The notes under the pieces: model-generated
What the model saw: only the letters and a program-made list of their open reading frames with translations
Told to the model about the DNA's origin: nothing
Database searches by the model: none
Program-made: the position numbers and the translations under genes
NCBI GenBank assembly: GCA_964601735.1
Contig: CAZROO010000001.1
Coordinates: 52,093-116,092, forward strand
DNA length: 64,000 bases
Direction: 5' to 3'
Source of the DNA: an uncultured Pseudomonadales bacterium
GTDB taxonomy: Bacteria; Pseudomonadota; Alphaproteobacteria; UBA2136; UBA6156
In this document: positions 19,761 to 37,479 of the stretch, piece by piece
How the letters are laid out: each line of letters begins with the position of its first letter
How positions within the stretch are numbered: position 1 is the stretch's first letter

Positions 19761-21047
19761 ATGCGAGCCACCCCATTACGGTTATCTCTGGCGGTTATTG
19801 GCCACACCTCGCTTGCAGTAGTGGGCCTTGTCGCGCTTCCTTCTTACGCTGCGCCGGTGCCGGGCTACGTGCCGCCGGTCACCGAGGCCACCGCGCCAGT
19901 GTACGCTGACGATACCCGCGGCGTCTATGTTCCCGCCCATGAGCAATTGCGGATGAAGACCGAGCAGGAGCTTAACGCCTACAAGGCGGTCGATCAGGGT
20001 AACAAACCTTATTACGCGCAAAAGGCGCCGGGCGGCACTGGTTACGAGCGTGCCATGAACACGGTGGCCGACGGCGTGCCGGACGAAACCGCCGAGCTTG
20101 ACCGCATCGGCAATGACCCCGGCTTGCTCAGTGGCGGCGGCAGGCAAACCTCGCGCACGCCAACCGACGATGTCCTCGCGCAAAATAATATTTCTCCGTC
20201 GCCCGCGCCGCGCATCGCCGCTGCACCGTCGGCCGCGGGTACCGATTTAAGCCGCTACCCCTCCATCGCCACCGGCGGCGGTGCCGATATCGGCGCTGCC
20301 CGTACCACACCCCAGTTTTCATCAGGGCCGCGCAGTGACGGCGGCGAAGAAGTGGCCGTCGGCAGTCCCGGTGCCTCGGGTGCCACTACCGCCGGTACGT
20401 TGGACATGCAAAACAGCACGGTCAAACTTAAAGAAGAACGCGTGGCCGTGCGTCGCGTGCTCCAACGTATGATGGACCAGATTGGCGGCGGCAGCTGGAC
20501 AATCGTCTGGGACCTCGACGAGCAGAACGCGGGCCTGCCGGACATGGAAATCTCGATTTACGCCGAAGAGCCTTTCGTCAACGTGCTTAACGCCCTGCTG
20601 GCCCGCCTGCAAACCCGCAGCGGCACGCCGCTCCGCGTCATTAAGTACGACCGTACCCAACGCCTGGTCATCACCGACCGCATCGGTGGCGACGCCCGCC
20701 TGGGCGCGCCGTCGGGTGCCGGTGCCGGCAGCGGCGGCAAGGGCGGCAACGACCTCGCCGTGACCGAAAGCGTGCTCAAGGACAGCGTGGTAAGTCTTCA
20801 CTACGACGAAGTGCCGCTGGTCGATGCGCTTGAAAACATTATCAATCAGGCCGGCAAGGGCCAATGGCGTCTGCGCATGTACGCGGGCACCGACCAGGTA
20901 CTCAAGCCTGCACATATCGAAGAGCCTTTCGGCGTGGCGGTCGACCGCATCCTCAAGGTTTTCAACCTGCGTTACGAAATTTTCCCCGGCGGCAAGCTGA
21001 TTGTCGTCACCGGTGGCGACCGTTTCGGTTATCAAGGAGTCCAGTAG
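19761..21047 (+). CDS. PilL-like protein with two TcpQ-like domains
   Basis: Signal peptide, a Gly/Ala-rich linker, then two domains ending ..RVIKYDRTQRLVITD and ..EIFPGGKLIVVTG (TcpQ/PilL-type pattern). Lies directly upstream of the secretin, as pilL does in type IVb clusters. Confidence 0.55.
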   Translation: MRATPLRLSLAVIGHTSLAVVGLVALPSYAAPVPGYVPPVTEATAPVYADDTRGVYVPAHEQLRMKTEQELNAYKAVDQGNKPYYAQKAPGGTGYERAMNTVADGVPDETAELDRIGNDPGLLSGGGRQTSRTPTDDVLAQNNISPSPAPRIAAAPSAAGTDLSRYPSIATGGGADIGAARTTPQFSSGPRSDGGEEVAVGSPGASGATTAGTLDMQNSTVKLKEERVAVRRVLQRMMDQIGGGSWTIVWDLDEQNAGLPDMEISIYAEEPFVNVLNALLARLQTRSGTPLRVIKYDRTQRLVITDRIGGDARLGAPSGAGAGSGGKGGNDLAVTESVLKDSVVSLHYDEVPLVDALENIINQAGKGQWRLRMYAGTDQVLKPAHIEEPFGVAVDRILKVFNLRYEIFPGGKLIVVTGGDRFGYQGVQ

Positions 21048-21048
21048 A

Positions 21049-23109
21049 ATGTTCGGTGGGGGGAAAGTTACCCGGTTTTGTCTGCTTGCCCTCGGGCTTG
21101 TTTCTGCTGGTATCCTGAGTTCGTGCGGCAACGGCGTCAGCTTTGCCCAGCGCGAAAGCCCCGCCAACCAGTTCAAGGATTACCGCCCCGAAAACCGTAA
21201 CAACAGTGACGTGCTCGGCATCGGCGAGCCGATGTCGGCCAAGCAGGCCCGTGCCAACGCCACCTTCACCATGAAGGGCGAGTACGACCTCGAAGCGGTT
21301 ATGAACAAGGTCGCCGGCACCTACAACGTGGCAGTGCGTTGGGGTAACGGCGTGCGCAAAAACAGCCGTCACGACGTCCTCATCAACAGTCTGGCGTTCG
21401 ACGAAATGCGCAGCTACGTCGAAGACAACTTCAACGTCCAGATTATCCGCGAGGGCGCGCGCCGCCTGTTGGTTCTGCCTTCGGCCAGCGAGCCCCGCCT
21501 GACCAGCTTCAGCCCCGGCGACAACGTTACCCTCGGCGCTGCCCTCAAGGGCCTGGCGCAACAGTGCAGTTACAACCTTGTCATCAATGAGAACAAGGAA
21601 AAACTCTCCACCACCCACGTCAGCACGCACCTTAAAAACGTCACCTGCTTCGACGCATTCGAGGCCCTGCTCAACCCGCAAGGCCTTAGCCTGGTTTCGC
21701 AAGGTGATTACTACACCATCGGCGGCCTGCCGCAGCGTGAGTGGACGCTGAACCTGTACGAGCCCGAACGGACCGAAGAACTCACCGTCAACTATTCCTC
21801 CTCGTTCTCGGGTGGCGCGGGCGGTTCCTCCTCTTCAGGCGGCATCTCGAGCGGCAGCAGCGGTAGTAGCAGCGGCTCCACCAGCAACACTTCGGGCGGC
21901 AGCAACAACGTCTCCATCAAATACGATCGTAATCTGTGGACCGAACTCGAAGGCGACCTCAACCAGCTCCTGGCCAGTTCCTGTGAAGGCATGGGCGGCA
22001 CCGCTGGCGCCTCCTCCCCCGCCGCCACGCCCGCTGCTCCGTCTTCGGCTCCCGGCGCCACACCCAGCTTGTTGCCTCCTCCGGTGGTTAATGGCGCCAA
22101 CGGCAGCAGTACTGGCGGCGCCACCCCGGCGGCAGTACCCACTCCTCCCAGTCCCGTGGGCTTCCACCAGTCCAATCCTGCCGCCAGCGCTGCCGCGCCT
22201 TCCTGCGGGTACGTACGCATCAACCGTGCCGTGGGGCTGGTTCAAATGCGTGGCCCGCTGAATGCGCTTAACCAGGCCGACCAAATCATCCAGCGCGTGG
22301 CCGACATCGCCAGCCGCCGCCTGCTGCTGGAAGCCCGCGTCGTGGCCGTCACCCGCGACCGCAGCTACGATCAGGACGGCAAACTGCGCTTCGGCCGCCG
22401 CGGCAACGGTGCCACCACCAGCATAGGCAGCGGCAGCAGCATCACCTCCGCCATCAGCAATGAGCTTGCCAGCATCACTTCTTCCGCTGCGGGCGCCAGC
22501 ACCAATCTGTACGGCATCAGCGTGCAAAAGCTGAACCTCGACGCGGTCATGGGCATGCTTGAAAGCTATGGCACCACCTACGAGCTGATGCACCCCATCA
22601 TGGAGCTGATGGATCGCCAGCGTGCCACGCTGATTGATGGCCGCAACGAAAAATACTTCATTATCCAAAGTACCAGCACCACCGGCACGGCCACCACCAC
22701 GTCGGCCAGCGTCGATGAGCGCGACCAGTTTGTGGGCCTGCAGTTCTCGGCCAGCGCGCAAATCTCCGACGACCCCAACGAGCCGCACACCATCAGCCTG
22801 CAAATTCCGATTACTTCAATCGTGAAGACCGTCGATATTCCCAATCCCAACTACGACGGCACTAATGGTTCTCCTATCAGCGGCCAGGCGCCGGTGGCGT
22901 CCACCCGCCTGATCGACCAGAAGGTCCGCATTCGCGACGGTGAAATCAAGGTCATCGGCGGCCTCACCCGCACCCTGGCCACCGACAACGAAAGCGGCCT
23001 GCCGATCATCCGCCAAATCTCGGGCCTGGGTAAGCTGTTCAATACCGAAGGCATTACCTACGAACAGGTCGAGTTTGTAGTTTTGCTACAGGTCAAACGG
23101 TTAAGTTAG
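21049..23109 (+). CDS. type IVb pilus secretin lipoprotein (PilN/BfpB-like)
   Basis: Lipobox LSSCG. C-terminal secretin signature VIGGL..ESGLPIIRQISGLGKLF..VEFVVLLQV. AAGGAG precedes ATG 21049. A Ser/Gly/Pro-rich insert is present. Confidence 0.85.
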   Translation: MFGGGKVTRFCLLALGLVSAGILSSCGNGVSFAQRESPANQFKDYRPENRNNSDVLGIGEPMSAKQARANATFTMKGEYDLEAVMNKVAGTYNVAVRWGNGVRKNSRHDVLINSLAFDEMRSYVEDNFNVQIIREGARRLLVLPSASEPRLTSFSPGDNVTLGAALKGLAQQCSYNLVINENKEKLSTTHVSTHLKNVTCFDAFEALLNPQGLSLVSQGDYYTIGGLPQREWTLNLYEPERTEELTVNYSSSFSGGAGGSSSSGGISSGSSGSSSGSTSNTSGGSNNVSIKYDRNLWTELEGDLNQLLASSCEGMGGTAGASSPAATPAAPSSAPGATPSLLPPPVVNGANGSSTGGATPAAVPTPPSPVGFHQSNPAASAAAPSCGYVRINRAVGLVQMRGPLNALNQADQIIQRVADIASRRLLLEARVVAVTRDRSYDQDGKLRFGRRGNGATTSIGSGSSITSAISNELASITSSAAGASTNLYGISVQKLNLDAVMGMLESYGTTYELMHPIMELMDRQRATLIDGRNEKYFIIQSTSTTGTATTTSASVDERDQFVGLQFSASAQISDDPNEPHTISLQIPITSIVKTVDIPNPNYDGTNGSPISGQAPVASTRLIDQKVRIRDGEIKVIGGLTRTLATDNESGLPIIRQISGLGKLFNTEGITYEQVEFVVLLQVKRLS

Positions 23110-23188: not shown

Positions 23189-23845
23189 ATGAATCTTAAG
23201 CAAATGCTCAAGATGGTACGCTCCAGCAAGGGTTATACGCTGGATCAGACCATCCTGATTATTGCCATCATCGCCATCCTGGTCACGCTCATCATCCTGA
23301 CCGTGGGCTGGAGCCTCATCAACCGCGCCTCCGGTACCCGTCTGGCCAGCCAGCTGGGCAACGTGCAGGACGCGCTGGGCAACTACTACGGCGACGTCAA
23401 GCAATGGCCGCAAGGCACCGTCAGCAGCCCCACGCTGGATGCCGCTGCTTTGGCCGGCTTTAACGACAAAAACAGCAGCACCAAAAACTATATCGCTGGT
23501 CTGACGACCTCGGCGGCGGGTGTTACTCACAACCTCAACAGCCAAAGCAACCGTAATGTGCTGCTCAGCCAGGTGGCTGGCAGTGCAACGGCCTGGACCG
23601 GTCCCGCCGGCACCACCTACGAAGTGGTTGAGTTCCAGAATGTGGCTGGCAGCGACTTCACCAATGCCGACAACGCCATCGACAGTGGCGACGGTGGTAG
23701 CGCCGGTAGCGTGCGCGCTATCGCCGCAGCGGGTAGCGCTCCTGCCGCTGGTGCCGGTTGCTTTGCTGCGACCCCTACCTTCGTCAGCAGCACTGCCGCC
23801 AACACCTACTACGACATCTGCTATCGCGCCAACAACGTGCAGTAA
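23189..23845 (+). CDS. type IV (IVb-like) major pilin, paralog 1
   Basis: 15-aa leader ending KG, then YTLDQTILIIAIIAILVTLIIL, and a C-terminal Cys pair (GCF...DICY). A strong terminator follows. Confidence 0.75.
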   Translation: MNLKQMLKMVRSSKGYTLDQTILIIAIIAILVTLIILTVGWSLINRASGTRLASQLGNVQDALGNYYGDVKQWPQGTVSSPTLDAAALAGFNDKNSSTKNYIAGLTTSAAGVTHNLNSQSNRNVLLSQVAGSATAWTGPAGTTYEVVEFQNVAGSDFTNADNAIDSGDGGSAGSVRAIAAAGSAPAAGAGCFAATPTFVSSTAANTYYDICYRANNVQ

Positions 23846-23858
23846 CGCTGTCGTTATC

Positions 23859-23891
23859 CAGCAGGGGCCCGTAAGGGCCCTCGCTGTTTTT
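23859..23891 (+). terminator. rho-independent terminator after pilin gene
   Basis: GGGGCCC-GTAA-GGGCCC hairpin followed by TGTTTTT. Confidence 0.65.
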
Positions 23892-24001
23892 GCGGCAGTT
23901 AAGCCACTGTATTTTAAATAAAGCCGCCCTCTGGCTGGCGCCCTTGCCCTGGCTAAAGTATTTTTCCCAAAATCGATGAACCGAACGCGGGAAGCCCCAC
24001 C

Positions 24002-24658
24002 ATGTACCGTCGCATCCTGAAAAAAAATCTTCTCGCCCAGCCGGGCTATACGCTCGACCAGACCATCCTGATCATCGCCATCATCGCCATCCTGATTACG
24101 CTCATTATCCTGACCGTGGGATGGAGTTTCATTAACCGTGCCTCCGGTACCCGCCTGGCCAATCAGTTGGGTGATATGAAGGATGCGGTCTCAGGCTATT
24201 TTGGCCAGCACAAACAATGGCCTGCGGGCATCGTCAGCAATCCCACCAACGACGCTGCCGCGCTGGCTGGTTATAACGATAAAAACGGCAACACCAAAAA
24301 TTACCTCGTCGGCCTGCTCAGCAGCGCCAGCGGCGTCACGCATAACCTCAATCTCATGCCCAACCGCAATGTGCTGCTCAGCCAGGTCAACGGCAGCGCC
24401 AGTAACTGGCCGGGGCCGACTGGCAGTGTCTACGAGGTCGTGGAATTCCAGAATATTTCAGGCAGCGATTTCACCGCCGCCGATGCCGTCATCGACACGG
24501 GCGACGGCGGTGCTCAGGGCAAAATCAGGGTCATCGCGGCGGCGGGCAGTGCTCCGGCGGCGGGGGGTGGTTGTTTTGCTTCGTCCCCCAGCTTTGTCAG
24601 CAGCACCACCGACAATAGCTATTACGACGTCTGCTACGCTTCCAACAACGCGCAGTAA
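24002..24658 (+). CDS. type IV (IVb-like) major pilin, paralog 2
   Basis: Leader ending PG, then YTLDQTILIIAIIAILITLIIL. Colinear with paralog 1 and the same length, 218 aa. Confidence 0.75.
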   Translation: MYRRILKKNLLAQPGYTLDQTILIIAIIAILITLIILTVGWSFINRASGTRLANQLGDMKDAVSGYFGQHKQWPAGIVSNPTNDAAALAGYNDKNGNTKNYLVGLLSSASGVTHNLNLMPNRNVLLSQVNGSASNWPGPTGSVYEVVEFQNISGSDFTAADAVIDTGDGGAQGKIRVIAAAGSAPAAGGGCFASSPSFVSSTTDNSYYDVCYASNNAQ

Positions 24659-24771
24659 CCCGTCGCGCAAGTGAGGCAGGCGGGCCACCCTCCGCCACGT
24701 ATCTCCATCCGTCGGGGTGCGGCTCCGCCTTTTTGACGGTAGGCTGGGGCAACAGCAAAAATATAGTAAGA

Positions 24772-26601
24772 ATGGCCACCGACCCGAACACCTTCATCGC
24801 CACGCCCCAGGAGAGCCTGACGCCGGTGTGGGAAGTCGAGCCCGATATCAAGGCGGCCGACGCCACTGGTACCGCGGGCTCGGCCGAAACCCCGGTAAAC
24901 GAGGGCGATACCTACCGGCGTGCCCTCAACATTATTCTCAACGCCACCGATCTCCAGCTCGATAATCTGGCGCGGAGCGAAATCCAGGCCGCCCTCGCCA
25001 GCGGGCGCCCGGCCCAGTTGCTGTGCCGCGAGTTGCTCGATAAAAAGCTGCTTCTTCCCCAAATCCTGGGCCGTGCACTGGCTCGTGCCAACCATGCCAG
25101 CGAAATCATGACGTTTACCGAAATTCCCAGCGGTGCCGGCCAGTTGCGCGACGAACTGCCGCCCCGGGTCACCGCCATGCTGCGGGCCGAGCGCATGATT
25201 CCGCTGGTTGTCAAAAAAAACGAGAATAACGAAATCGCCGAATTGCATGTCGCGGCCGAAACCCTGGGCCGCGACCTGGTGCTGGAAAACCAGTTGCGTG
25301 ACATGCTCAACCCCGGCGCCAGAATCGTCTGGCATTTCGGCCTGCGCGAGGTCGCCGGTGCGTACTGGCTGTCGGGCGCCACCGCCGATGTCGATACCGG
25401 TATGGAGGCCGAGGCCCTGCTCGAGCGTATCCTGTCCACCGCCATCGACGCCCGCGCCTCCGATATCCACATCGACCCCTCTATCAAGGGCGAGCCGCGC
25501 GCGCTCATCAAGTACCGCATCGACGGTTTCGTGCACCCGAAAGAAATGGTCACCCTCGACCAGCTTGATCGCCTGCGGGTGCGCATCGAAAACGTCGCGC
25601 GCATGCCCAAGGTCAACCTCAATCACCCCAACAAGGGCGCCTTTAGCCGTGTCGGTTACGACTGGCGTGTGCAAATGCAGCCGCACGCGGGCCGCCAGGG
25701 GCCGGTGCCGCGCATCGTCATCCGCCGCCTCAAGCCCGAGGTGCTGCCGCTCGAGGCGCTGGGCTATCCTCCCGATTTCGTCGAAAAAATCATTCAGGCT
25801 GCAGCCGCACCCAACGGCGTCATCTTCTGGACCGGCCCCACCGGCTCGGGCAAAACCGAATCCATTCACGCCGCACTGGTGTCCGCCAACCCGATGGCTC
25901 GGGGCCTCAGCGTCCATACCATCGAAGACCCGCCGGAAAAACGCGTGCCTGGTTACGCCGTGCAAATGGAAGTGGCCGAGGAAGACCCCGCCCGCACCGC
26001 ACTGCAATTGCTCAAGTCCTCGCTGCGGGCCGACCCCGACGTGGTGATTTTCGGTGAAGTCCGTGATGCCGAAATGGCCAAGCTGGTGTTCGAGGCCGCC
26101 AATACCGGGCACTTGGTGTTCACCACGCTGCACACTAACACCGCTCTCGATAGCATTTTCCGCCTGGTCGAACTCAAGGTAAACGGCTTCCTGCTCAGTT
26201 ACGTGCGTGGCATCGCGGCGCAGCGGCTGGTGCGGCGCCTGTGCACGCACTGCCGCATCCGCCAGGAGCCGATGGACGATTTTGCCCGCTATATTTTCGA
26301 TCGCTATCAACTACCGTCCGAAGGCGCCGACGTCTACAACGCCAATCCGGATGGTTGCCTCAACTGCAATTTCACCGGCTACTATGGACGTATCGCGGTG
26401 GCCGAATGGCTGCAACCTACCAAGGAAATCATCGAGGCTACGGTGGCGGGCCAGTATGACCAGCTCGAAGACATGGCCCGCCGTGCCGGCTGGCAGCCGA
26501 TGGGCCGCATGGGCGCGCAGCACATGGCCGCGGGCATCACCGATGCCGCCGAACTTTCCAGTAAAATTCTCGAACTCGCGGCTGCCGCGCTGGTGAAATA
26601 A
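24772..26601 (+). CDS. GspE/PilB-family pilus assembly ATPase (PilQ of IncI nomenclature)
   Basis: Walker A GPTGSGKT, Asp box, Walker B VVIFGEVRD, His box FTTLHTN, and tetracysteine CTHC...CLNC. Confidence 0.9.
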   Translation: MATDPNTFIATPQESLTPVWEVEPDIKAADATGTAGSAETPVNEGDTYRRALNIILNATDLQLDNLARSEIQAALASGRPAQLLCRELLDKKLLLPQILGRALARANHASEIMTFTEIPSGAGQLRDELPPRVTAMLRAERMIPLVVKKNENNEIAELHVAAETLGRDLVLENQLRDMLNPGARIVWHFGLREVAGAYWLSGATADVDTGMEAEALLERILSTAIDARASDIHIDPSIKGEPRALIKYRIDGFVHPKEMVTLDQLDRLRVRIENVARMPKVNLNHPNKGAFSRVGYDWRVQMQPHAGRQGPVPRIVIRRLKPEVLPLEALGYPPDFVEKIIQAAAAPNGVIFWTGPTGSGKTESIHAALVSANPMARGLSVHTIEDPPEKRVPGYAVQMEVAEEDPARTALQLLKSSLRADPDVVIFGEVRDAEMAKLVFEAANTGHLVFTTLHTNTALDSIFRLVELKVNGFLLSYVRGIAAQRLVRRLCTHCRIRQEPMDDFARYIFDRYQLPSEGADVYNANPDGCLNCNFTGYYGRIAVAEWLQPTKEIIEATVAGQYDQLEDMARRAGWQPMGRMGAQHMAAGITDAAELSSKILELAAAALVK

Positions 26602-27686: not shown

Positions 27687-27687
27687 A

Positions 27688-28974: not shown

Positions 28975-29483
28975 ACCGCCGCAGCGTCCTCACCCTCTGG
29001 GCTGTGCTTCTGGTGATGTTACTCATCGGCACACTGGTGGTGTTCAAGTTTAGCAGCAGCGAAAAAACGGTCATCCAGCAGCGACAGTCCGACCTTGCGG
29101 CCAGCCGTCAGGAGCTCGAAAATGTCTCGCGCCTGTCCACCGCGCTCAAAAAGCTCGACCAGCTGACTATCGATGAAAACACTGCCACGCGGCTCGAAAT
29201 CTTGCGCCACCTGCAAATGGAAAACAACGATTACAACATCATCATCGGTTCCCGTTCACCCCACGTGGTGGGCTCGGTTTCGCTTACGCAGCGTCAAATC
29301 ACCATCATCGCCGACCTCTCCTACGCCGATGCCATGGCCCTGGCCGACCGGGTTTACAACCAGAGCAGAATGAACGTCACCGGCGTCACGCTTTCCAATG
29401 CGCCGGATGCTTCCGGGGCCGAGGTCGAAGTCAAAATCGACGGCATGCTCTACGGCCTCGACAAACACGAGCCGCAGTCATGA
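28971..29483 (+). CDS. PilO/GspM-like bitopic assembly protein
   Basis: N-terminal TM, coiled coil and small C-domain; ATGA overlaps on both sides. Confidence 0.45.
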   Translation: MNRRSVLTLWAVLLVMLLIGTLVVFKFSSSEKTVIQQRQSDLAASRQELENVSRLSTALKKLDQLTIDENTATRLEILRHLQMENNDYNIIIGSRSPHVVGSVSLTQRQITIIADLSYADAMALADRVYNQSRMNVTGVTLSNAPDASGAEVEVKIDGMLYGLDKHEPQS

Positions 29484-30118
29484 GAACCGTTCGTTGCCTG
29501 ACCCTCACCGGCCTGCTGCTTGCTTCCGCCAGCATCGCCGCGGCACAGGAAGACCTGCTCTGGAAGGCCGAAAATAACACTTCTCCCACCCTTGTGCCCA
29601 TGTATCAGGGGTGGAGTACAACCTTCAGGATACCTTCATCCAAGCCAGCCCCTGTGGCCGATAACAAGCAAAAGGAAGCAGACGCCGAGGCCGCCAAGGC
29701 CGCGTTGCTGGCCGCCCAGCGCGAGGCCCAGATACGGCAGGAGGAGGCGAATGCCAAGAAAAAGGCCGCCGCCCTCCTGGCCAACCCGGGTGCCATCGCG
29801 GCCAATATGCAAAATGTCCAGGTCGACGGCATCTTGCAGGGGCCGGGGGGCAACAGCATGCTGCTGGGGGGGAGCTGGCTGCAGGAAGGCTCACAGCTTC
29901 TGGTGTCCTCCACCGTCAGCAACCCCACGCTCAAGGCCATTTCCAGCCTCCAGGGTAACGACACGATGGCCGCCAACCTGGCCAACGAAGGCCTCCAGGC
30001 CCGCCTGACCAAACAGCCTTCCATCAGCATCACCCTGGTCCAGGTCACCTCGGCGAGCGCCATCTTCAGTGACGGCCACCAGCGCTATACGGTCAAAGCG
30101 AGTCAGTCGGCATTTTAG
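29480..30118 (+). CDS. periplasmic protein with PilP/GspC-like segment
   Basis: Signal peptide, Lys/Ala-rich coiled coil, then VDGILQGPGGNSMLLGGSWLQEGSQL, resembling PilP/GspC HR domains. Confidence 0.4.
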   Translation: MRTVRCLTLTGLLLASASIAAAQEDLLWKAENNTSPTLVPMYQGWSTTFRIPSSKPAPVADNKQKEADAEAAKAALLAAQREAQIRQEEANAKKKAAALLANPGAIAANMQNVQVDGILQGPGGNSMLLGGSWLQEGSQLLVSSTVSNPTLKAISSLQGNDTMAANLANEGLQARLTKQPSISITLVQVTSASAIFSDGHQRYTVKASQSAF

Positions 30119-30146
30119 AGCATCCGCATAAACCCAGGGGTAGCCC

Positions 30147-32054
30147 ATGCAAGCTTTTTATTTCTTTGCGATATTCGGCCTGCTTTCCTCCATTATTGGC
30201 GGCATTATTGCGGTGTCCAACCTTACCACGCAAAGGCTGCGGGTCATGCTGCTCAACGAGGCGCACGAGCAGTTCCGCAGTGCCAACGTCATGCTCAACG
30301 GCCAGTATATCCCCAATTACCTGCAAAGCCCGCCTATTCCGGGTGCGGGCACCAGCACCCCGGCAGGCCCGTACGTCTGCGGCATCGAGGATATCCGCCA
30401 GATTCTCAACTGCAGCAGCGGCGTGCCCAAAGATCCCTGGAACCACGACATCACCGGCGTGGTGGTGCGCCAGATGCAGGCCATCGCCACCAAAACCAAC
30501 CTGGTATTCAACGTGCCTGTCACCGGCTACGCGCTGCTGTCGGCGGGGCCCGATGGCATCATCCAAAGCACGCTGCCCAGCAATCCCACCACTATTGCCC
30601 AGCTGACGGCCCTCACGCCCTCGGGCGATGACATCCTCGAAGTCTTTACCGACCAGAAAGGCCAGCAGGACAACGTCGGTCGCGTCGAGGGTGCCCTGAC
30701 CCGCATCGGCCAGGCCGCCATTCAGAATTATCAAAGGCAATTTGCCCTCATCGTCAAACCGAGCCTCGCCAGCATCTACGCCGCCGCGAATTTTGCCGAT
30801 ATCACCACACCCGCCGCCCAGAACTACTGGAAAACCTATGTGACCCAAACCTCCGGCACTCAAGTCGTCAACCTCACCTCGGGGTCGAACTGGACGGTGC
30901 CCTTGAACTGGCCCAACGATAACAACAAAATCGAAACGCTCGGTGGCGGCGGTGCCGGCGGCTACGGCGCGTATTTTGCGAGCGGCGGCGGCGGCGGCGC
31001 TTATTCGTCCAGCAATAACGTGGTGCTGACACCCGGTGCCACGGTCGCCTACCAGGTCGGCGCAGGCGGGGCGGCGCTGGCCTCAAGCCCCGGTGGCGCT
31101 GGTGGTGATACCTGGTTTAACGGCACCAGCCTGTCAAACGCCTTGGTCAGTGCCCAGGGTGGCGCTGGAGGCCAAATAAATCCCAGTGTTGTACCCCCCG
31201 CTTCTTCGGGCGGCCAAGCCATGTATGGCCGGGGTACTGGCGTTCGTACGTCCGGGGGGACCGGCGGTGTGGGTGCCTATGGCGGTGGTGGCGGCGGCGG
31301 GGCGGCCGGTCCGCTTGGCAATGGCGGCAACGGCGGCAGTTACGCCGGTGGCTCGAGCAACGGCGGCGGTGGCGGCGGTGGCGGCAACGGCGGTAGTAAT
31401 GGCGCCAACGATGCCCTTAATGCCTGCGCCGGTGGTAATGGCGGCAACGGCGGGCTCACCGGCACCGGGGGCGGCCTTAGCAGCGCCACCGTATGTAATG
31501 CGGGCACCAACGGCGGCGGTGGCTCCGGTGGGTGGGGAGGAGCTTGCCCCGGCGGTAACGGTGGTATGGATAATTACTATGGTGGCACCATCGGTTTTGG
31601 CGGCGGTGGTGGTGGCGGCGGGTATAACCCCTGCACCGCCAGCCCTGTTGCTAATGGGTCTGGCCGCTATGGCGGGGCGGGTAACTTCGGTGCTGGCGGC
31701 GGCGGTGGCGCCCCTAACACAAGCGGCGGCGCTGGCGGGCAAGGGTTTATCCGCATCACCTATACGCCGCAGGGTGACCGCGTGACGTTTAAAAAACTGC
31801 TCAACCCGAGCAACACGCTCAATACCTACGCCATCGGTGACGACGGCGACGTTGCCACTATCCAGCGCACGCTCGGTGACGGTAGCAATCTCACCCTCAT
31901 GGGCAGTGTCAGCGATTCCGATCCCACCAACAACGGCGTCAACGACATCCTCTTCCTGACCATCAGCACCACCACGACGCCGTGGCAACAGGTCACGCCC
32001 AATTGTACGGTCAATACGCCAATTAACTGTATGAAGGTGAAGGGAACCATATAA
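30147..32054 (+). CDS. pilin-like N-domain fused to a long glycine-rich domain (candidate tip/adhesin protein)
   Basis: Hydrophobic N-terminus. The SAGPDG motif also occurs in the PilV-like neighbour (SGGPDG). About 270 residues of GGxGG-type repeats. Confidence 0.5.
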   Translation: MQAFYFFAIFGLLSSIIGGIIAVSNLTTQRLRVMLLNEAHEQFRSANVMLNGQYIPNYLQSPPIPGAGTSTPAGPYVCGIEDIRQILNCSSGVPKDPWNHDITGVVVRQMQAIATKTNLVFNVPVTGYALLSAGPDGIIQSTLPSNPTTIAQLTALTPSGDDILEVFTDQKGQQDNVGRVEGALTRIGQAAIQNYQRQFALIVKPSLASIYAAANFADITTPAAQNYWKTYVTQTSGTQVVNLTSGSNWTVPLNWPNDNNKIETLGGGGAGGYGAYFASGGGGGAYSSSNNVVLTPGATVAYQVGAGGAALASSPGGAGGDTWFNGTSLSNALVSAQGGAGGQINPSVVPPASSGGQAMYGRGTGVRTSGGTGGVGAYGGGGGGGAAGPLGNGGNGGSYAGGSSNGGGGGGGGNGGSNGANDALNACAGGNGGNGGLTGTGGGLSSATVCNAGTNGGGGSGGWGGACPGGNGGMDNYYGGTIGFGGGGGGGGYNPCTASPVANGSGRYGGAGNFGAGGGGGAPNTSGGAGGQGFIRITYTPQGDRVTFKKLLNPSNTLNTYAIGDDGDVATIQRTLGDGSNLTLMGSVSDSDPTNNGVNDILFLTISTTTTPWQQVTPNCTVNTPINCMKVKGTI

Positions 32055-33217
32055 TGATACCCACCATGCGCCATGTTTTATCGCCCCTCCGCAAGGCCGA
32101 CGGTTTCTCAATGGCCGAAATCATGCTCTCGGTCGCGGTGCTGGCCATCCTGGTGTCGATCACCGCGCCGCCGCTCATCACCTTCATGCGCCAAAAGGAT
32201 GTCCGCGAGGAGCAAAGCCAGCAAATCCAAATCCGTGACGGCATGGCCGCGATGCTTGCCGCCACCGACAGCCTGCCGCTCGACACGGCCACCGGCAACA
32301 GCGCCTGGTATAACGTGCTGGCGCCCTACACCAACCTGTCGCCGTACCAAATCCAGTTCGACCAGTGGAACAAACCGCGCGCCTATATCATGATGGTCAA
32401 CAACCAAAACCTGCTGGGCAGCCCGGTCTCCATCACCTACGTTACACTGAGCAGCGGCGGGCCCGACGGCAAGGCTTCGCAAATCACCGATAAGAACGGC
32501 AACGTCATCGTTCCGGTCAGCGGCAACGCATTTGCGGCGGCTTCCGACAGCCACTGGTGGAAGTTCAACTCCACCAGTGCCCTCGCGGCCTTCGGTTCAG
32601 TGGGTATCTCCAGCACCACCACCACCGACGATATCATGCTCCGCTTCACCAACTACCCGGATAAAATCGCTGCCTACAACAACACGCTTGAGCGTCTCGG
32701 CAAGGTTACCGAAGCGCTCGAATCCTACAACCGCACCGCCTACGCCAACCGCGTCGTCGCCTGCAACAGCAACCCGTCGCCGACCGACTGCGTTACCAGT
32801 CCGCCGGATACCCAAATCAATTACCCGATGGGCTACGGCGTAACCACGGGCGACAGTTCGTCTCTCTATAACGCCACGGTCATTTCCGATACCACTACCA
32901 TCACCGGCGGTACGGGGTATATCTATAACGGCACCGGCAGTGCGACCAACGATACCGCCCGTCGCACCGCCATGATCAACCTCATGCGCTTGCTCGGTCT
33001 GCCGGACAGCTATTGCTGCAGCGCCATCGACCACTTCACCGATAGCAGCGGTGCCTGGCAGGAAACCCCGTTCTTCTATGCCAGCAATCCGCGGGCCCGT
33101 GCTACTATCTCTACCTGCGGCAACCGTTATAACGGCACTTCCGCCACCATTCCGCTGCCGGCCCGGCTGACCACCTACTACACGGCCGACGGCAATAACG
33201 GCGCCAGCTGCTTCTAA
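32054..33217 (+). CDS. minor pilin, PilV-like
   Basis: Canonical class III signal ..KADG/FSMAEIMLSVAVLAILV with E5; large variable C-domain with a Cys pair. Confidence 0.7.
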   Translation: MIPTMRHVLSPLRKADGFSMAEIMLSVAVLAILVSITAPPLITFMRQKDVREEQSQQIQIRDGMAAMLAATDSLPLDTATGNSAWYNVLAPYTNLSPYQIQFDQWNKPRAYIMMVNNQNLLGSPVSITYVTLSSGGPDGKASQITDKNGNVIVPVSGNAFAAASDSHWWKFNSTSALAAFGSVGISSTTTTDDIMLRFTNYPDKIAAYNNTLERLGKVTEALESYNRTAYANRVVACNSNPSPTDCVTSPPDTQINYPMGYGVTTGDSSSLYNATVISDTTTITGGTGYIYNGTGSATNDTARRTAMINLMRLLGLPDSYCCSAIDHFTDSSGAWQETPFFYASNPRARATISTCGNRYNGTSATIPLPARLTTYYTADGNNGASCF

Positions 33218-33219
33218 AA

Positions 33220-33549
33220 ATGGCCGAAGCCCTCTGGTACGTCACGGCCTTCCATCCGTGGCTGTGGCTGGTGCTCGGCGGCGTGCTGGGCGCGGTGCTG
33301 GGGTCGTTCTTCACCTGCGCCGCCTACCGCGTGCCGCGCGGCATCAGCCTGCGCAAGCCGGTGTTCAGTTTCTGCCCGTGCTGTAACCACCGCCTGACCG
33401 TCCCCGACCTCATTCCCATCGGCAGCTGGCTGGCGTTGCGGGGCCGGTGTCGCCATTGCGGCGGGGCCATTCCGCTGCGCAGCCTGGGGCTCGAAATCGC
33501 CGCCACCGCCGCAGGCGTGGGCCTGACGTGGTTGCTCCTGCATTTATGA
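33220..33549 (+). CDS. prepilin peptidase N-terminal (Zn/di-Cys) domain only; A24 protease domain absent
   Basis: GSFFTCAAYRVPRG...CPCCNHRL...IPIGSWLALRGRCRHCGG..IPLR matches the PilD N-terminal domain. The ORF stops at 109 aa, and only 74 nt remain before the next gene. Confidence 0.75.
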   Translation: MAEALWYVTAFHPWLWLVLGGVLGAVLGSFFTCAAYRVPRGISLRKPVFSFCPCCNHRLTVPDLIPIGSWLALRGRCRHCGGAIPLRSLGLEIAATAAGVGLTWLLLHL

Positions 33550-33623
33550 CACACCGCATCCCCCGCTGACATGGCGCAGCTTGGGTTTTCTCATCAAAAA
33601 GGGCAAAATCCGGCAGGAGAAAA

Positions 33624-35141
33624 ATGCCGATGCATAGCCGTATCTTGGGGTTAGCGATTTTACTGAGCACCACCACGCTGGTGCACGTCGCTGTCGCTCA
33701 AACGGTAACCGATACCCCCTCCAGCCCCCGCCCGGCAGACGACATCATCACCCCCGGCCAGGTGCTGCTCCACCGCACCGAGGCCGCACTGTCGCCGCAA
33801 ACCCAAACCAGTTGGGAAGACAAGCTCAAGCAAAGCCTGGCCGACGCCCAAGCCCTCTTCAAACAACAGTCCTCGGCGCAACTCAACCAGATGCGCGACG
33901 AAAACGCTCGCCTGCAACAGCAGCTCACCGCTCAACAGTTGCTGATGGCCGAAAGCGCCCGCGCCCGCGACGAAGCCACCCAGGCCAAACTGGCCGCCAG
34001 CGAAACCAGGTTCGACGCCCTGGCGCAAACCACCAACACCAAGCTCGAGGGCATGGCCCAGATCGCCGAAACCCAGAACAAGCTGAACCAGGTGCAACTG
34101 GCGGCGCTGGCGGGCGAGTTCGACAACAAGCTGCATTATTACGCCACCGAGCAACTGGCCCAGGCCCGGCGTGACACCGACGCCGCGCTGCAAAAGGTCG
34201 CCAAGGGCGCACGCATCGACGTGCTTGAGCTGCAAAAGCAAACCGCTGCCAAGCTGGCCGAAATCCGCGACGCCGCCAATCAAAAGGCCGAGGCGATGGC
34301 CGATGCCCGCGCCGCCGCGGTCGAAAAGAAACTCGCCGACGCGCTTGAGCAGAAAACCTCGCCTGAACAGGCCAAGCAACTGGCGCGCGAGCAACTGGCC
34401 GACGCCGCGCCTGAAATGCGCGCGCTGGCGTTGCAAACGCTGTCCGACTCGCAGGATTATATCAAAACCGTGGCCAAGGATGCCGTTAAGGATAACGACC
34501 CCGCAGTGCAGGAAGCCTTGCAGAATGCGGCCAAAAACGTCATCGCCAAGGATAACAAGGTTGTCTTCGCCATGCGCCAGGCTATGGCCCGGCAAATCGC
34601 CGACGAGGCTGCCGGCAAGCCCATCGAGGGTGTTGATGCGACAGGTACGGCGGGCAGCACGCTGGCCGATGCCCACGGTGAAACCCCGGCCATTCCGCTC
34701 GGCAATGCGTTGGGCGACGATGTGCAAATCGACCCCGCCAGCTTGCAAATCACCGCGCCGCAGGCGGGTGCCTCAGCCACGGTGCCGCAAATCCTGGCCT
34801 CGCTGGGCGGGCACAAAACCTCGTTGCTGCCCGCGCGCAGCCGCCGCGACTGGGTCGACCTCCGCAAGTACAAGGTGGTGGTCCACGAAGACGGTAAAAC
34901 GCTCGAAGAGCTGATGAACGAGGTCATGACCCGCGCCGAGCCCTTTACCGGCCCGTGGAAAATCAAATGGAAAATCAGCGACGAGAACAAGGATATCCTC
35001 AGCACCAAGTTCAGCCTCGATACCGAAACCAGCTTCGACGAGTTCGTCAGCTACCTGGCACAGTACCTGGTTAACGACCGCGGCGTGAAAATCACTTTCA
35101 GCCTGTTCGACCGCGACCGCGTGATAGTGATTAGCGACTGA
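33624..35141 (+). CDS. secreted long coiled-coil protein with C-terminal TcpQ-like domain
   Basis: Signal peptide, about 300 aa of Ala/Gln/Lys coiled coil, and a C-terminus ..WKIKWKIS...ITFSLFDRDRVIVISD. Confidence 0.5.
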   Translation: MPMHSRILGLAILLSTTTLVHVAVAQTVTDTPSSPRPADDIITPGQVLLHRTEAALSPQTQTSWEDKLKQSLADAQALFKQQSSAQLNQMRDENARLQQQLTAQQLLMAESARARDEATQAKLAASETRFDALAQTTNTKLEGMAQIAETQNKLNQVQLAALAGEFDNKLHYYATEQLAQARRDTDAALQKVAKGARIDVLELQKQTAAKLAEIRDAANQKAEAMADARAAAVEKKLADALEQKTSPEQAKQLAREQLADAAPEMRALALQTLSDSQDYIKTVAKDAVKDNDPAVQEALQNAAKNVIAKDNKVVFAMRQAMARQIADEAAGKPIEGVDATGTAGSTLADAHGETPAIPLGNALGDDVQIDPASLQITAPQAGASATVPQILASLGGHKTSLLPARSRRDWVDLRKYKVVVHEDGKTLEELMNEVMTRAEPFTGPWKIKWKISDENKDILSTKFSLDTETSFDEFVSYLAQYLVNDRGVKITFSLFDRDRVIVISD

Positions 35142-36646
35142 TGAAAAAAACTCACACTCCTCTTCGGCTTCATGCCAGCGAAGGCTGGCATCCACGCCAA
35201 AGCGGCGTTTCGGTTATCGCTATCCTCGCCTGTTTGACACTCACCGCCTGCGCCACCACCCAAACCGCCGCACCTGCCCGCTCGCCGCTGGTGCCCACGG
35301 GCGAACCCGGCGAGGTCATTGCCAGCGCCCACATGGCGCCGGTGCCGGAAGACAAATTGCACACCTACCGCGAAACCGACTGCGCCGGGCCCGGTCTCGA
35401 CGTCACCATCGAAACCGTCCGCAATGAAAAGAAATACCTGTTCGACAACCAGGGCCACCCCTGCACCCCGTCCATCGTGGTTTACGATGGCAACATGCCC
35501 GCCGCACAGCGCGCCCAGTCACAGGGTCTCGACCCCAACGTCGGCATCACCTTCCACGACAAACTCGGCCCGCTGCACGACGACACGTTCAAACCCGCGC
35601 CCCTGCTTAAAGTCACCACCACCGGCGGCCTCGTCGACGTCAGCGGCAGCAAGCCCGCCCCCACCCCGCGTGCCGAGGCCGACACCCTGGTCAAAACCCT
35701 CAACGCCTGGCAGGCCGACAGCCAAAGCGCCCAAAAAACGCTGGTGCAAAAGCACCTGCAACGCGAGCAGATGATGGCCGACGAAACCGCCCGCCAGATC
35801 GCCCGCGCCGGCAAGGCCGAAAACGCCGCCGAGCAGCAAAAGCAGGTCGACCTGCTCATGTCCCGGCTGCGCGAAACCGAACGCCAGTTGCAATCCGAGC
35901 AAAAAAACCACCAGGCTACGCTGGAAGAACAGCAAAACCAGGCCCAGCAAACCCAGGCCGCCGTCCGCCGCTTCCAAACCGACGAAGACGACCTCAAGAG
36001 CCAGCTTGCCGCCACGCAAGCCAGGTTGGCCCAGGTCGAAAGCATCAGCCAGCAACTGGCTGCCAGTAACGCCAAGCAGCGCGACGAATACCAAAAGCAG
36101 CTGGTGGCCATGTCGTCCGACATTAAAGCCGCCGAAGCCAAGGCCGACCAATCCCGCCAGCAGCTCATCTTCGCCGCCGCCAAAAAGGTCGCCGAGGCCG
36201 ACGAACTCGCTCGCGCAGCCTCACTTTCCGCCGCCGACAGCAAGGCCCGCGAAGCCGCCCGCCTCAAGGCCGAAGCCGACGCCAACCTCGACGCCGCGCT
36301 CGACCTGACTGCCGACGGCCGCCCGCGCGGCCTGCCCAACCCGGCCAAGGCGCCGGTGGCACTGGCCGACGTGCCCGTGGTCATCCACCAAAAAGACCAG
36401 CCGCTCGATGTCATCGTCGGTGCCATCCTCGCCCAGGCCGAATCCCAGTCCGGCAAATGGACAGCCGACTGGCAGCTCTCCAAAAACGCCCAGTTCATCC
36501 TCAAGGAAAAGTGGTCGCTGACCGCCGAGGCCCCGGTGCGGACGTTGCTCCAAAACCTCACCACACAGGTTAAAACCACACACAATCTCAATCTTAAATT
36601 CACCCAGTTCGGCCAGTCCCGCCTGCTGGTCATTACCGATGAATAG
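35141..36646 (+). CDS. lipoprotein with coiled coil and C-terminal TcpQ-like domain
   Basis: Lipobox LTLTAC, Gln/Ala-rich coiled coil, and a C-terminus ..WTADWQLS...LKFTQFGQSRLLVITDE. A palindromic element is inserted in the signal n-region. Confidence 0.5.
   Translation: MKKTHTPLRLHASEGWHPRQSGVSVIAILACLTLTACATTQTAAPARSPLVPTGEPGEVIASAHMAPVPEDKLHTYRETDCAGPGLDVTIETVRNEKKYLFDNQGHPCTPSIVVYDGNMPAAQRAQSQGLDPNVGITFHDKLGPLHDDTFKPAPLLKVTTTGGLVDVSGSKPAPTPRAEADTLVKTLNAWQADSQSAQKTLVQKHLQREQMMADETARQIARAGKAENAAEQQKQVDLLMSRLRETERQLQSEQKNHQATLEEQQNQAQQTQAAVRRFQTDEDDLKSQLAATQARLAQVESISQQLAASNAKQRDEYQKQLVAMSSDIKAAEAKADQSRQQLIFAAAKKVAEADELARAASLSAADSKAREAARLKAEADANLDAALDLTADGRPRGLPNPAKAPVALADVPVVIHQKDQPLDVIVGAILAQAESQSGKWTADWQLSKNAQFILKEKWSLTAEAPVRTLLQNLTTQVKTTHNLNLKFTQFGQSRLLVITDE
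35165..35197. repeat. 33-nt GAAG-loop palindromic element, in frame in a CDS
   Basis: CGGCTTC-ATGCCAGC-GAAG-GCTGGCAT-CCACGC; encodes RLHASEGWHPR in the signal n-region of the 35141 ORF. Confidence 0.8.
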
Positions 36647-37474: not shown

Positions 37475-37479
37475 TCTAC

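What the first reader, a model, noticed from the sequence alone, without database searches (positions are those of the whole stretch)
19761..36646. Expansion of TcpQ/PilL-like domains, two of them fused to very long coiled coils
Four domains share one pattern: a short beta start, a helix, a W-x-(I/L/A)-x-W or W-x-L-R core, and a terminal hydrophobic strand ending in D or G. They are RVIKYDRTQRLVITD and EIFPGGKLIVVTG in the 19761 ORF, ITFSLFDRDRVIVISD in the 33624 ORF, and LKFTQFGQSRLLVITDE in the 35141 ORF. This is the pattern of TcpQ/PilL pilotin-like domains that accompany type IVb secretins. Here one protein has two copies. The other two are a secreted protein and a lipoprotein, back to back with a 1-nt overlap; each attaches one copy to about 300 residues of Ala/Gln/Lys coiled coil. 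Such an architecture could span the periplasm or link the secretin to the T4SS core, whose pilin/TraL/E/K genes follow immediately.
Basis: partly seen in the sequence, partly recalled or inferred. Interest (0 to 1): 0.65.

Follow-up and report, generated by a model that had tools for sequence, protein, structure and literature searches.

The report
TcpQ-like secretin-partner domains, expanded and tethered
Three neighbouring proteins in a pilus and conjugation gene cluster of an uncultured alphaproteobacterium carry four copies of the small domain that normally clamps around a type IVb pilus outer-membrane pore. Two of these proteins attach it to long helical stalks, an arrangement not described before whose role is still inferred.

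Summary
The observation mostly holds. Protein A (19761-21047), B (33624-35141) and C (35141-36646) carry homologous ~95-residue domains. Profile-profile probabilities are 99.6% for D3-D4, 95-96% for D1-D3/D4 and 86-91% for the degenerate D2. AlphaFold2 gives D4 an N0-like fold (pLDDT 93.9). Its nearest solved structures are BfpG (the TcpQ homologue bound to the BfpB secretin) and DotD, but no Foldseek hit reaches E<=0.001.

The link to Pfam TcpQ stays below threshold. D1 relatives score up to 25.5 bits against a cut-off of 27. B and C never hit. A short sister subfamily ending in "DTYY" connects them: it matches D3 and D4 at 99.7-99.9%, and in 6 of 6 loci it lies directly upstream of a lipoprotein secretin.

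"Very long coiled coils" is not supported. The stalks are Ala/Gln-rich and Pro/Gly-poor, but they show no heptad signal, whereas the Lpp and GCN4 controls do. C also has an unnoticed Cys-containing N-terminal domain and a stalk of constant length (210-223 aa). B's stalk varies widely (83-508 aa).

My best reading is that A is the PilL/TcpQ equivalent and that B and C are tethered paralogues joining the pilus secretin assembly. Binding is untested. This is a new variant of a known kind.

The parts
19761..21047 (+). Protein A (428 aa). It has a Sec signal peptide, a conserved N-terminal domain (aa ~32-118), a disordered Gly/Ser/Pro linker, and two N0-like domains. It is the PilL/TcpQ-equivalent secretin partner, and its stop lies 2 nt before the secretin start.
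   Evidence: The A-secretin adjacency is conserved in L043 and L044.
20412..20690 (+). D1 (A aa 218-310). TcpQ-like N0-like domain with strand and helix order E-H-E-E-H-E-E.
   Evidence: Pfam TcpQ 12.7 bits in the window and up to 25.5 bits in homologues, covering profile positions 10-79 of 80. pLDDT 79-92. Foldseek top hits are DotD and BfpG. hhalign to D3, D4 and DTYY gives 95.6-97.8%.
20766..21020 (+). D2 (A aa 336-420). A shortened, degenerate second copy that keeps G-Q-W and E-E-P-F.
   Evidence: hhalign 86% to D4, 91% to DTYY and 67% to D1. Low pLDDT, with helices and strands in the same order. No Pfam hit.
21049..23109 (+). Lipoprotein secretin (lipobox LSSC) of the type IVb-like pilus. 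It is the presumed docking partner.
   Evidence: Pfam Secretin 1.3e-17 and STN 2.9e-6; MshL-like by NCBIfam. Sequence.
23189..33549 (+). Rest of the pilus operon: two pilin paralogues, a T2SSE ATPase, a T2SSF platform, three PilO/PilP-position genes, a Gly-rich protein, a minor pilin, and a stand-alone A24_N domain protein.
33624..35141 (+). Protein B (505 aa). It has a type-I signal peptide here, whereas 20 of 33 homologues have a lipobox. It then has the motif G45..R51-T-E, a variable Ala/Gln-rich helical region (aa 59-252), a conserved helical module (aa 253-330), a Pro/Gly linker, and D3.
34836..35138 (+). D3 (B aa 405-505). N0-like TcpQ-class domain.
   Evidence: hhalign D3-D4 99.6%, D3-DTYY 99.9% and D3-D1 96.4%. 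DTYY HMM 7.9e-26.
35141..36646 (+). Protein C (501 aa). It has a lipoprotein signal (Cys37), an orphan N-terminal domain with two invariant Cys (aa 45-176), a constant-length helical region (aa 177-392), a linker, and D4. Its start overlaps B's stop by 1 nt.
35669..36316 (+). C helical stalk: 216 aa, 21.8% Ala, 14.8% Gln and 0.5% Pro+Gly. Its length is 210-223 aa in 36 homologues of about 40% identity.
   Evidence: No heptad signal.
36353..36643 (+). D4 (C aa 405-501). N0-like TcpQ-class domain.
   Evidence: AlphaFold2 pLDDT 93.9, order E-H-E-h-E-H-E-E. Foldseek top hits are BfpG 9u5s_R and DotD.
36715..36742 (+). Sigma-70-like promoter (TTGAAA-N16-CATACT) in front of the VirB2-like pilin genes. 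It marks a transcription-unit boundary just after C.
   Evidence: Found. The same TTGAnn-N16/17-CCATAAT-type motif occurs in the equivalent gap of 12 related loci.
36771..39299 (+). First genes of the F-like T4SS block: two TrbC/VirB2-like genes, a TraL-position gene, a TraE/VirB8-like gene and a TraK-position gene.

Best explanation
A, B and C are paralogous carriers of one N0-like, TcpQ/BfpG-class 'secretin-partner' domain that has multiplied in this lineage.

A is secreted, carries two copies and is encoded directly upstream of the lipoprotein secretin. It is the PilL/TcpQ equivalent and most likely forms the ring that clamps the periplasmic part of the type IVb-like pilus secretin. BfpG does this on BfpB by beta-strand addition.

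B and C form a translationally coupled pair at the 3' end of the pilus gene block. They carry the same domain at the C-terminus of a helical stalk. Most homologues are anchored by an N-terminal lipid. I infer that they add further N0-like subunits to the same secretin assembly, as extra ring layers or struts. C's length-invariant ~214-residue stalk and its Cys-containing N-terminal domain would act as a fixed spacer between the lipid anchor and the ring. B would be a flexible tether of variable length.

Shown here: domain homology, the predicted fold, export signals, gene coupling, conservation and secretin adjacency of the sister family. Inferred: the binding partner, the membrane of anchoring, the geometry and the stoichiometry.
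For: - Homology of D1, D3 and D4, and probably D2.
- N0-like fold at high confidence for D4 and D1. BfpG (from the BfpB-BfpG secretin complex) and DotD are the top PDB neighbours of both models.
- Recurrent near-threshold Pfam TcpQ hits on D1 in 30 of 42 homologues and on 13 of 29 DTYY proteins.
- The DTYY HMM hits BfpG in register over aa 63-129, with E 1e-4 in a 3-sequence test.
- The closest relatives of D3 and D4 outside the cluster are the DTYY proteins (99.7-99.9% hhalign). In 6 of 6 independent loci they sit immediately upstream of a lipoprotein secretin, with no T4SS genes nearby.
- A abuts or overlaps the secretin gene in the window and in L043 and L044.
- A conserved promoter starts a new unit right after C.
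- The T4SS has its own small lipoprotein at the TraV position.
- Canonical F-type T4SSs have no TcpQ-like component, whereas T4b pili do (established knowledge; PMC12531336).
- B and C are conserved with the cluster in all 28 species-level genomes found.
Against: - No window protein reaches the Pfam TcpQ gathering score, and B and C get no TcpQ hit at all.
- No Foldseek hit has E<=0.001, and D4 matches DotD (TM ~0.6) at least as well as BfpG (TM 0.46-0.49).
- B and C lie 10.5 kb from the secretin gene and directly beside T4SS genes. In every locus both machines are present, so synteny cannot separate them.
- A weak promoter-like motif upstream of B could make B-C a unit of its own.
- No interaction was modelled or measured.
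- B's stalk length varies five-fold or more (83-508 aa among 33 homologues), and the distant loci appear to carry short B genes. This argues against a precise structural role for that part.
Confidence: 0.55

Rival explanations
1. B and C are outer-membrane core-complex subunits of the F-like T4SS. They would be lipoproteins whose N0-like domains build a periplasmic ring around the TraK/TraB core, as DotD does in Dot/Icm and the C-terminal N0 domain of Xanthomonas VirB7 does in its T4SS.
For: B and C are immediately upstream of the VirB2-like, TraL, TraE and TraK genes. DotD chains are among the best structural matches of D4 and D1, with prob 0.89-1.0 and TM ~0.6. C and most B homologues are lipoproteins. 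N0-like lipoproteins in T4SS cores are established (PMC12531336 cites VirB7 6GYB).
Against: A conserved promoter separates C from the T4SS pilin genes. A 145-aa lipoprotein already occupies the TraV position between TraB and TraC. The nearest sequence relatives outside the cluster are secretin-adjacent, not T4SS-adjacent. No DotD, DotC or DotH family was among the Pfam hits of A, B or C at E<=1. Known F-type T4SSs lack such a component.
Confidence: 0.2
2. B and C are couplers. Their stalks would bridge the pilus secretin and the T4SS envelope complex, or reach from the outer membrane to the inner-membrane platform. The two machines would then work as one conjugation or contact apparatus.
For: B and C sit exactly at the junction of the two gene blocks in all 28 genomes. 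The C stalk length is conserved at 210-223 aa, about 32 nm if it is one straight helix (inference). The whole pilus-plus-T4SS order is conserved over deep divergence.
Against: There is no evidence of a second interaction surface other than the unexplained N-terminal domain of C. B's stalk is highly variable or absent. There is no coiled-coil signal. IncI plasmids pair a T4b pilus with a T4SS without any such coupler.
Confidence: 0.12
3. The resemblance among the four segments is a compositional or chance pattern, and B and C are merely generic Ala/Gln-rich periplasmic proteins.
For: B and C get no Pfam or NCBIfam domain hits. Direct comparison with IncI PilL is not significant.
Against: hhalign E-values run from 1e-8 to 1e-35. 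An independent HMM picks only these ORFs out of the whole six-frame window. The domain is the most conserved part of both families. The fold is predicted with confidence.
Confidence: 0.02

Closest known systems
TcpQ (V. cholerae TCP), BfpG (EPEC BFP), CofC and LngC: N0-like partners of lipoprotein type IVb secretins (Pfam PF10671; PDB 9u5s)
   Same: A small periplasmic N0-like domain with the same order of strands and helices. W-x3-W and a terminal hydrophobic strand ending in T/S-D are also visible in BfpG and PilL. The gene sits directly upstream of a lipoprotein secretin for A and for the DTYY paralogues. BfpG is a top structural neighbour.
   Different: Sequence similarity is below Pfam's threshold. 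The profile of D1, D3 and D4 finds only 212 proteins in 1.84 billion, and all 30 looked up or scanned belong to this family's own subtypes. A has two copies plus an extra N-terminal domain. B and C add 300-400 residues of stalk, and C adds an orphan domain. BfpG and TcpQ are 130-150-aa single-domain proteins.
PilL of IncI plasmids (R64, ColIb-P9 type; here pSal8934a, L041:3502-4569)
   Same: A 355-aa lipoprotein encoded upstream of the PilN lipoprotein secretin in a T4b pilus operon that accompanies a conjugative T4SS. Its C-terminus ends ..CIITVSDT, like the DTYY proteins. By eye it contains two W-x3-W units, like A.
   Different: Profile comparison is not significant: DTYY-PilL hhalign gives 3.4%, although the alignment is in register. 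PilL has no long helical region. The window's A is not a lipoprotein.
DotD (Legionella Dot/Icm) and the C-terminal N0 domain of Xanthomonas VirB7
   Same: Lipoproteins that carry an N0-like domain and build periplasmic rings of an envelope-spanning secretion machine. DotD is a top Foldseek neighbour.
   Different: No sequence relationship was detected. These proteins belong to T4SS cores without secretins. They have no long helical stalk.
Alignment or tether proteins of other pilus machines (PilP lipoprotein and PilN/PilO in T4a, RcpC in Tad) and long helical periplasmic spacers (Lpp, TolA domain II)
   Same: The concept is shared: a membrane-anchored protein places a small ring-binding domain at a defined distance. 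C has a weak NCBIfam TolA-like match (E 0.16).
   Different: No homology. PilP uses an HR domain and an inner-membrane anchor. Lpp is a canonical heptad coiled coil, and B and C are not.

Membership tests
Pfam TcpQ (PF10671) | HMM score at or above the gathering cut-off (27 bits) | tested here: not met
   A scores 12.7 bits (E 0.14) on D1, and B and C get no hit. The best A-homologue scores 25.5 bits. 30 of 42 A-homologues and 13 of 29 DTYY proteins hit at E<=0.1. None of 33 B and none of 36 C homologues hit.
TcpQ/BfpG-class secretin partner | N0-like alpha/beta fold | tested here: met
   D4 model has pLDDT 93.9 and D1 has pLDDT 79-92. BfpG and DotD are the top PDB neighbours, with prob 0.9-1.0, TM 0.46-0.61 and E 0.0045-0.04. 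D2 is inconclusive because of low pLDDT.
TcpQ/BfpG-class secretin partner | Encoded next to a lipoprotein type IVb secretin | tested here: met
   A lies 2 nt upstream of a secretin with lipobox LSSC, and the genes overlap in L043 and L044. DTYY paralogues do the same in 6 of 6 loci. B and C are in the same cluster but 10.5 kb downstream, so the feature is only loosely met for them.
TcpQ/BfpG-class secretin partner | Exported to the periplasm | tested here: met
   By sequence inspection only. A and B have type-I signal peptides and C has a lipobox. 28 of 36 C and 20 of 33 B homologues have lipoboxes.
TcpQ/BfpG-class secretin partner | Binds the secretin N-terminal (LG) region and stabilises the multimer | not testable with these tools
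   No multimer prediction or experiment was available.
Secretin N0 / STN domain (PF07660, PF03958) | HMM match | tested here: not met
   A, B and C get no STN or Secretin_N hit at E<=1. One of 42 A-homologues hits Secretin_N at 0.04. The D-domain HMMs do not hit the window secretin.
DotD / VirB7-N0 T4SS lipoproteins | Sequence homology, and partner subunits (DotC/DotH or VirB9) in the cluster | tested here: not met
   No DotD, DotC or DotH family was among the Pfam or NCBIfam hits of A, B or C or of the T4SS-block proteins scanned. The T4SS is a distant F-type (TraB 4.5e-25, TraC 3e-57). Only the fold is shared.
Canonical heptad coiled coil | 3.5-residue hydrophobic periodicity and a/d core occupancy | tested here: not met
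   z<=2.7 in all 56-residue windows of B and C, against 6.7 for Lpp and 4.4 for GCN4. a/d occupancy is 0.41 against 0.78 for Lpp. Helical character itself is inferred from composition only.

The most novel reading that the evidence does not exclude
B and C are length-defined periplasmic struts that physically join the type IVb pilus secretin ring to the F-like T4SS, or to the inner-membrane platform. A vertically inherited chromosomal pilus-plus-T4SS cluster in this uncultured alphaproteobacterial lineage would then work as one composite contact and transfer machine built around multiplied N0-like ring modules.
Probability: 0.1. Interest if true: 0.8.

Novelty: new variant of a known kind. Interest (0 to 1): 0.45.

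Why it matters
Type IVb pilus machines lack the PilMNOP alignment complex of type IVa systems. How their secretin ring is positioned and connected is only now being resolved, with the BfpB-BfpG structure published in 2025.

A lineage that has multiplied the BfpG/TcpQ-type module into five domain copies in four proteins offers natural variants for asking what this module binds. One of these proteins has a stalk of constant length and one has a stalk of variable length. Stalk length may therefore set periplasmic geometry, and this family allows that to be tested.

The analysis also assigns a domain and a probable role to two protein families (B-type and C-type) that are annotated only as hypothetical, or mislabelled as V-ATPase subunit E or SbcC. 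Together with A-type and DTYY proteins they make up the roughly 200 cluster representatives that match the domain profile.

Tried and rejected
- PDB sequence searches found nothing significant with the domain profile, the two helical regions or the C N-terminal domain.
- tblastn of C and of A's D1-D2 region against 72,556 plasmids gave no match.
- R64 and ColIb-P9 could not be fetched by accession. I used an IncI plasmid found through the pilus ATPase instead.
- Direct HMM and hhalign comparison with single PilL and BfpG sequences gave only DTYY-HMM against BfpG as suggestive (E 1e-4 in a 3-sequence test). PilL was not significant.
- The helical regions of B and C are not homologous to each other, and the N-terminal domains of A and C are unrelated. 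Only the C-terminal domain is shared.
- C's N-domain does not match the TraV-position lipoprotein.
- The generic promoter and terminator scan gave counts no higher than shuffles. Only the cross-locus conservation of one site was informative.
- A possible promoter upstream of B is weak and seen in only 5 loci, so I drew no conclusion from it.
- The first search for related loci attempt with the mixed domain alignment failed for lack of a conserved stretch.
- I considered that the secretin N-terminus carries a further copy of the domain. The HMMs do not support this.

Full report
**What is at the coordinates.** On the + strand, ORF A runs 19761-21047 (428 aa), ORF B 33624-35141 (505 aa) and ORF C 35141-36646 (501 aa). 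All four quoted C-terminal strands are present at A aa 292 and 406, B aa 490 and C aa 485. B's stop and C's start overlap by one base, TGATG. Between A and B lies a type IV pilus operon. It encodes a lipoprotein secretin (21049-23109; Pfam Secretin 1.3e-17, STN 2.9e-6), two pilin paralogues, a T2SSE ATPase, a T2SSF platform protein, three small envelope proteins, a Gly-rich protein, a minor pilin and a stand-alone A24_N domain protein.

**Wider context.** After C come VirB2/TrbC-like, TraE-like and positionally TraL/TraK-like genes. Further on are TraB/VirB10 (NCBIfam 4.5e-25) and TraC/VirB4 (3e-57). Upstream of A are TraU, TraF and a coupling protein. The pilus block is therefore nested in a distant F-type T4SS cluster of about 47 kb. 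Housekeeping genes flank the cluster, and I saw no tRNA or integrase.

**Are the four segments related?** Yes for three of them, and probably for the fourth.
- Pairwise BLASTP gives 50.8 bits for D3-D4 (26% identity over 95 aa) and 32-34 bits for D1 against D3 or D4.
- With family profiles (42 A, 33 B and 36 C homologues), hhalign gives D3-D4 99.6% (E 2.6e-24), D1-D3 96.4%, D1-D4 95.6%, D2-D4 86% and D1-D2 67%.
- D1, D3 and D4 align end to end with almost no gaps. They share G-x-W-x3-W, (A/T)-E-x-(P/S)-F and the terminal L/I-V-I-T/S-D strand.
- An HMM built only from an independent subfamily (DTYY, below) was searched against every six-frame ORF of the window. It finds B (7.9e-26), C (6.7e-20) and D1 (1.1e-11) and nothing else.
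- D2 is about 13 residues shorter. It keeps GQW and EEPF, reaches 91% against the DTYY profile, and is only marginal in HMM-to-sequence searches.

**Fold.** AlphaFold2 on the D4 alignment gives pLDDT 93.9, with the order strand-helix-strand-(short helix)-strand-helix-strand-strand. In the full-length A model, D1 (aa 220-305, pLDDT 79-92) has the same order. D2 has low confidence but shows the same succession of helices and strands. A further N-terminal domain (aa 40-118) is predicted at pLDDT 73-85. Foldseek against the PDB puts BfpG from the BfpB-BfpG secretin complex (9u5s_R) and Legionella DotD at the top for both models. Probabilities are 0.89-1.0 and TM-scores 0.46-0.61. No hit has E<=0.001, so this identifies a fold class and not a family. 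According to PMC12531336, BfpG and its homologue TcpQ are N0-like proteins. Seventeen copies clamp the N3 ring of the lipoprotein secretin by beta-strand pairing with the secretin's N-terminal LG domain. The paper notes the same fold in secretin N0 domains and in Xanthomonas VirB7.

**Link to TcpQ.** Pfam TcpQ is the only family that recurs, and always below its 27-bit cut-off.
- The window's A scores 12.7 bits.
- 30 of 42 A-homologues hit at E<=0.1. The best scores 25.5 bits, and the hits always fall on D1 and cover profile positions 10-79 of 80.
- One homologue carries a precomputed PF10671 hit, and one is named a TcpQ protein by UniRef.
- B and C families never hit.
- A profile of D1, D3 and D4 searched against 1.84 billion representatives finds only 212 proteins at E<=0.001, and 207 of them are below 1e-10. 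All 30 that I looked up or scanned belong to this family's own subtypes. This is a sharply bounded, divergent clade.

**The DTYY sister subfamily.** Within that clade there are A-type, B-type (171-1028 aa) and C-type (about 475-880 aa) proteins, and a fourth type of 170-260 aa that usually ends ..ISDTYY.
- The DTYY profile matches D3 at 99.9% (3.5e-35), D4 at 99.7% and D1 at 97.8%.
- 13 of 29 DTYY members hit Pfam TcpQ (best 4.1e-5).
- The DTYY HMM aligns in register with BfpG aa 63-129 (E 1e-4 in a 3-sequence test). IncI PilL is not significant.
- In six of six independent loci the DTYY gene lies directly upstream of a ~600-aa lipoprotein secretin, followed by a YkuD gene. In the three longer-contig contexts (L034, L036/L037, L039/L040) housekeeping genes surround this module.
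- One such locus is from the same assembly as a full cluster locus (L039 and L013, GCA_002422365.1).
- The nearest relatives of D3 and D4 are therefore dedicated secretin neighbours.

**Architecture of B and C.** C has a lipobox (LTAC; 28 of 36 homologues have one). The window's B has a type-I signal peptide, but 20 of 33 homologues have a lipobox.
- C contains an unannotated N-terminal domain (aa 45-176) with two invariant Cys. It has no relatives in Pfam or the PDB.
- C then has a 216-aa region with 22% Ala, 15% Gln and 0.5% Pro+Gly. Its length is 210-223 aa in all 36 homologues despite about 40% identity.
- B has a variable Ala/Gln-rich region of 83-508 aa in homologues. In the most distant loci only the C-terminal ~100-140 aa of B are matched, and in several the gap between the flanking genes leaves room only for a short B gene. 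B then has a conserved 78-aa helical module and a Pro/Gly linker.
- The helical parts of B and C are not homologous to each other.
- A hydrophobic-periodicity test that detects Lpp (z 6.7) and GCN4 (z 4.4) finds no sustained heptad signal in either protein (maximum z 2.7; a/d occupancy 0.41 against 0.78). 'Coiled coil' is therefore unproven, and 'long helical stalk' is an inference from composition.

**Which machine do B and C belong to?** The order ATPase, platform..., minor pilin, A24_N, B, C, VirB2-like, TraL, TraE, TraK, SLT, UvrD-like is conserved wherever the contigs extend, across all 28 species-level genomes recovered. These are MAGs labelled Alphaproteobacteria, Proteobacteria UBAxxxx, MarineProteo1 or Magnetococcales. 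Synteny therefore cannot separate the two machines. Three points favour the pilus secretin:
- the domain's relatives are secretin partners;
- a sigma-70-like promoter (TTGAAA-N16-CATACT, 36715-36742) lies between C and the T4SS pilin genes and recurs in 12 other loci;
- the T4SS already has a 145-aa lipoprotein at the TraV position.

Two points argue against. B and C sit next to the T4SS genes, and D4 matches DotD structurally at least as well as BfpG.

**Most likely mechanism.** A is the PilL/TcpQ equivalent that rings the secretin. B and C are lineage-specific tethered paralogues that add N0-like modules to the same periplasmic assembly. C would use a fixed-length spacer and B a variable one. 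My confidence is about 0.55. Domain homology and fold are shown. Binding, anchoring membrane and geometry are inferred. The rivals are T4SS core subunits (0.2), a physical coupler of the two machines or of the two membranes (0.12), and chance resemblance (0.02).

**Novelty.** The domain class, and its association with type IVb secretins, is known. New here are its multiplication (five domain copies in four proteins per genome), its fusion to long stalks and to an orphan Cys domain, and the constant stalk length of C. B- and C-type proteins have no domain annotation in Pfam or NCBIfam. In public records they are called hypothetical, or are mislabelled by helical similarity as V-ATPase subunit E or SbcC. 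I rate this a new variant of a known kind, of moderate interest.

Noticed in passing
L034:2709-5859; L036:4366-7482; L039:10001-12953 (not in the window): The same lineage has an orphan three-gene module: a DTYY-type TcpQ-like protein, a ~600-aa lipoprotein secretin and a YkuD L,D-transpeptidase. It always lies next to a divergent DUF1294 gene, with glmU and/or rpsD nearby where the contig extends far enough, and with no pilus, T2SS or T4SS genes nearby. L039 comes from the same assembly as cluster locus L013. What passes through this second secretin is unknown.
   Followed up: partly
window 33220-33549: A stand-alone 109-aa A24_N_bact domain (the four-Cys N-terminal part of prepilin peptidases, E 3.5e-23) without the peptidase A24 catalytic domain. 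It is conserved as a 111-140-aa gene at this position in the loci with gene calls (L001-L004), and tblastn matches it in most other related loci.
   Followed up: partly
window 36715-36742 and the equivalent gaps of L001, L003, L006, L010, L022, L024-L026, L028-L031: A conserved promoter-like motif, TTGAnn-N16/17-CCATAAT or CATACT, lies upstream of the VirB2-like pilin genes. It acts as a phylogenetic footprint of a transcription start.
   Followed up: yes
window 39392-39991: A 107-aa GIY-YIG-like ORF (39456-39779) in a lower-GC stretch sits between the TraK-position gene and the SLT gene. L001, L003 and L006 have no room for a gene there. It looks like a recent insertion.
   Followed up: partly
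window 30147-32054: A 635-aa protein with a Gly-run region several hundred residues long (roughly aa 265-535). Its counterparts in L001 and L003/L004 are only 314-347 aa. tblastn matches in related loci cover mainly the N-terminal ~200 aa, and in L006 also the last ~80 aa.
   Followed up: no
window 35273-35668 (C aa 45-176): A conserved domain with two invariant cysteines and a D-C-x-G-P-G-L motif. It has no Pfam, NCBIfam or PDB-sequence relatives and does not match the TraV-position lipoprotein.
   Followed up: partly
window 33750-33790 (B aa ~44-53): A short motif, G-x-V-L-L-H-R-T-E (FMRRT in relatives), lies just after the signal peptide or lipobox. It is conserved in both long and short B-type proteins and is a candidate docking strand.
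   Followed up: no
window 51514-51951 and 15963-16970: Two further lipoproteins. One is 145 aa (LLAGC) at the TraV position between TraB and TraC. The other is 335 aa (LLCGC) with a short heptad-looking stretch, downstream of the coupling protein. Neither has any family match.
   Followed up: no
window 10705-57815: The whole cluster of F-like T4SS plus type IVb pilus (~47 kb) is flanked by housekeeping genes: RNase PH and HemN on the left, an AI-2E transporter and MurJ on the right. I saw no integrase, relaxase or tRNA. A UvrD-like helicase and a ParB-like/HTH protein are embedded in it. Much of it is syntenic across 28 species-level MAGs on contigs up to 1.36 Mb, which suggests a vertically inherited chromosomal apparatus and not a mobile element.
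   Followed up: partly
window 18223-19578 (- strand): A 451-aa ORF with no family match is divergently transcribed from A. Genes of 480 and 462 aa occupy the same position and orientation in L043 and L044.
   Followed up: no
L041:3502-4569 (IncI PilL): By eye, PilL contains two units with W-x3-W and a terminal T-V-T-T or T-V-S-D strand (aa ~105-185 and ~265-350). The tandem arrangement in protein A may therefore be ancestral to PilL-type proteins. The profile scores are not significant.
   Followed up: partly
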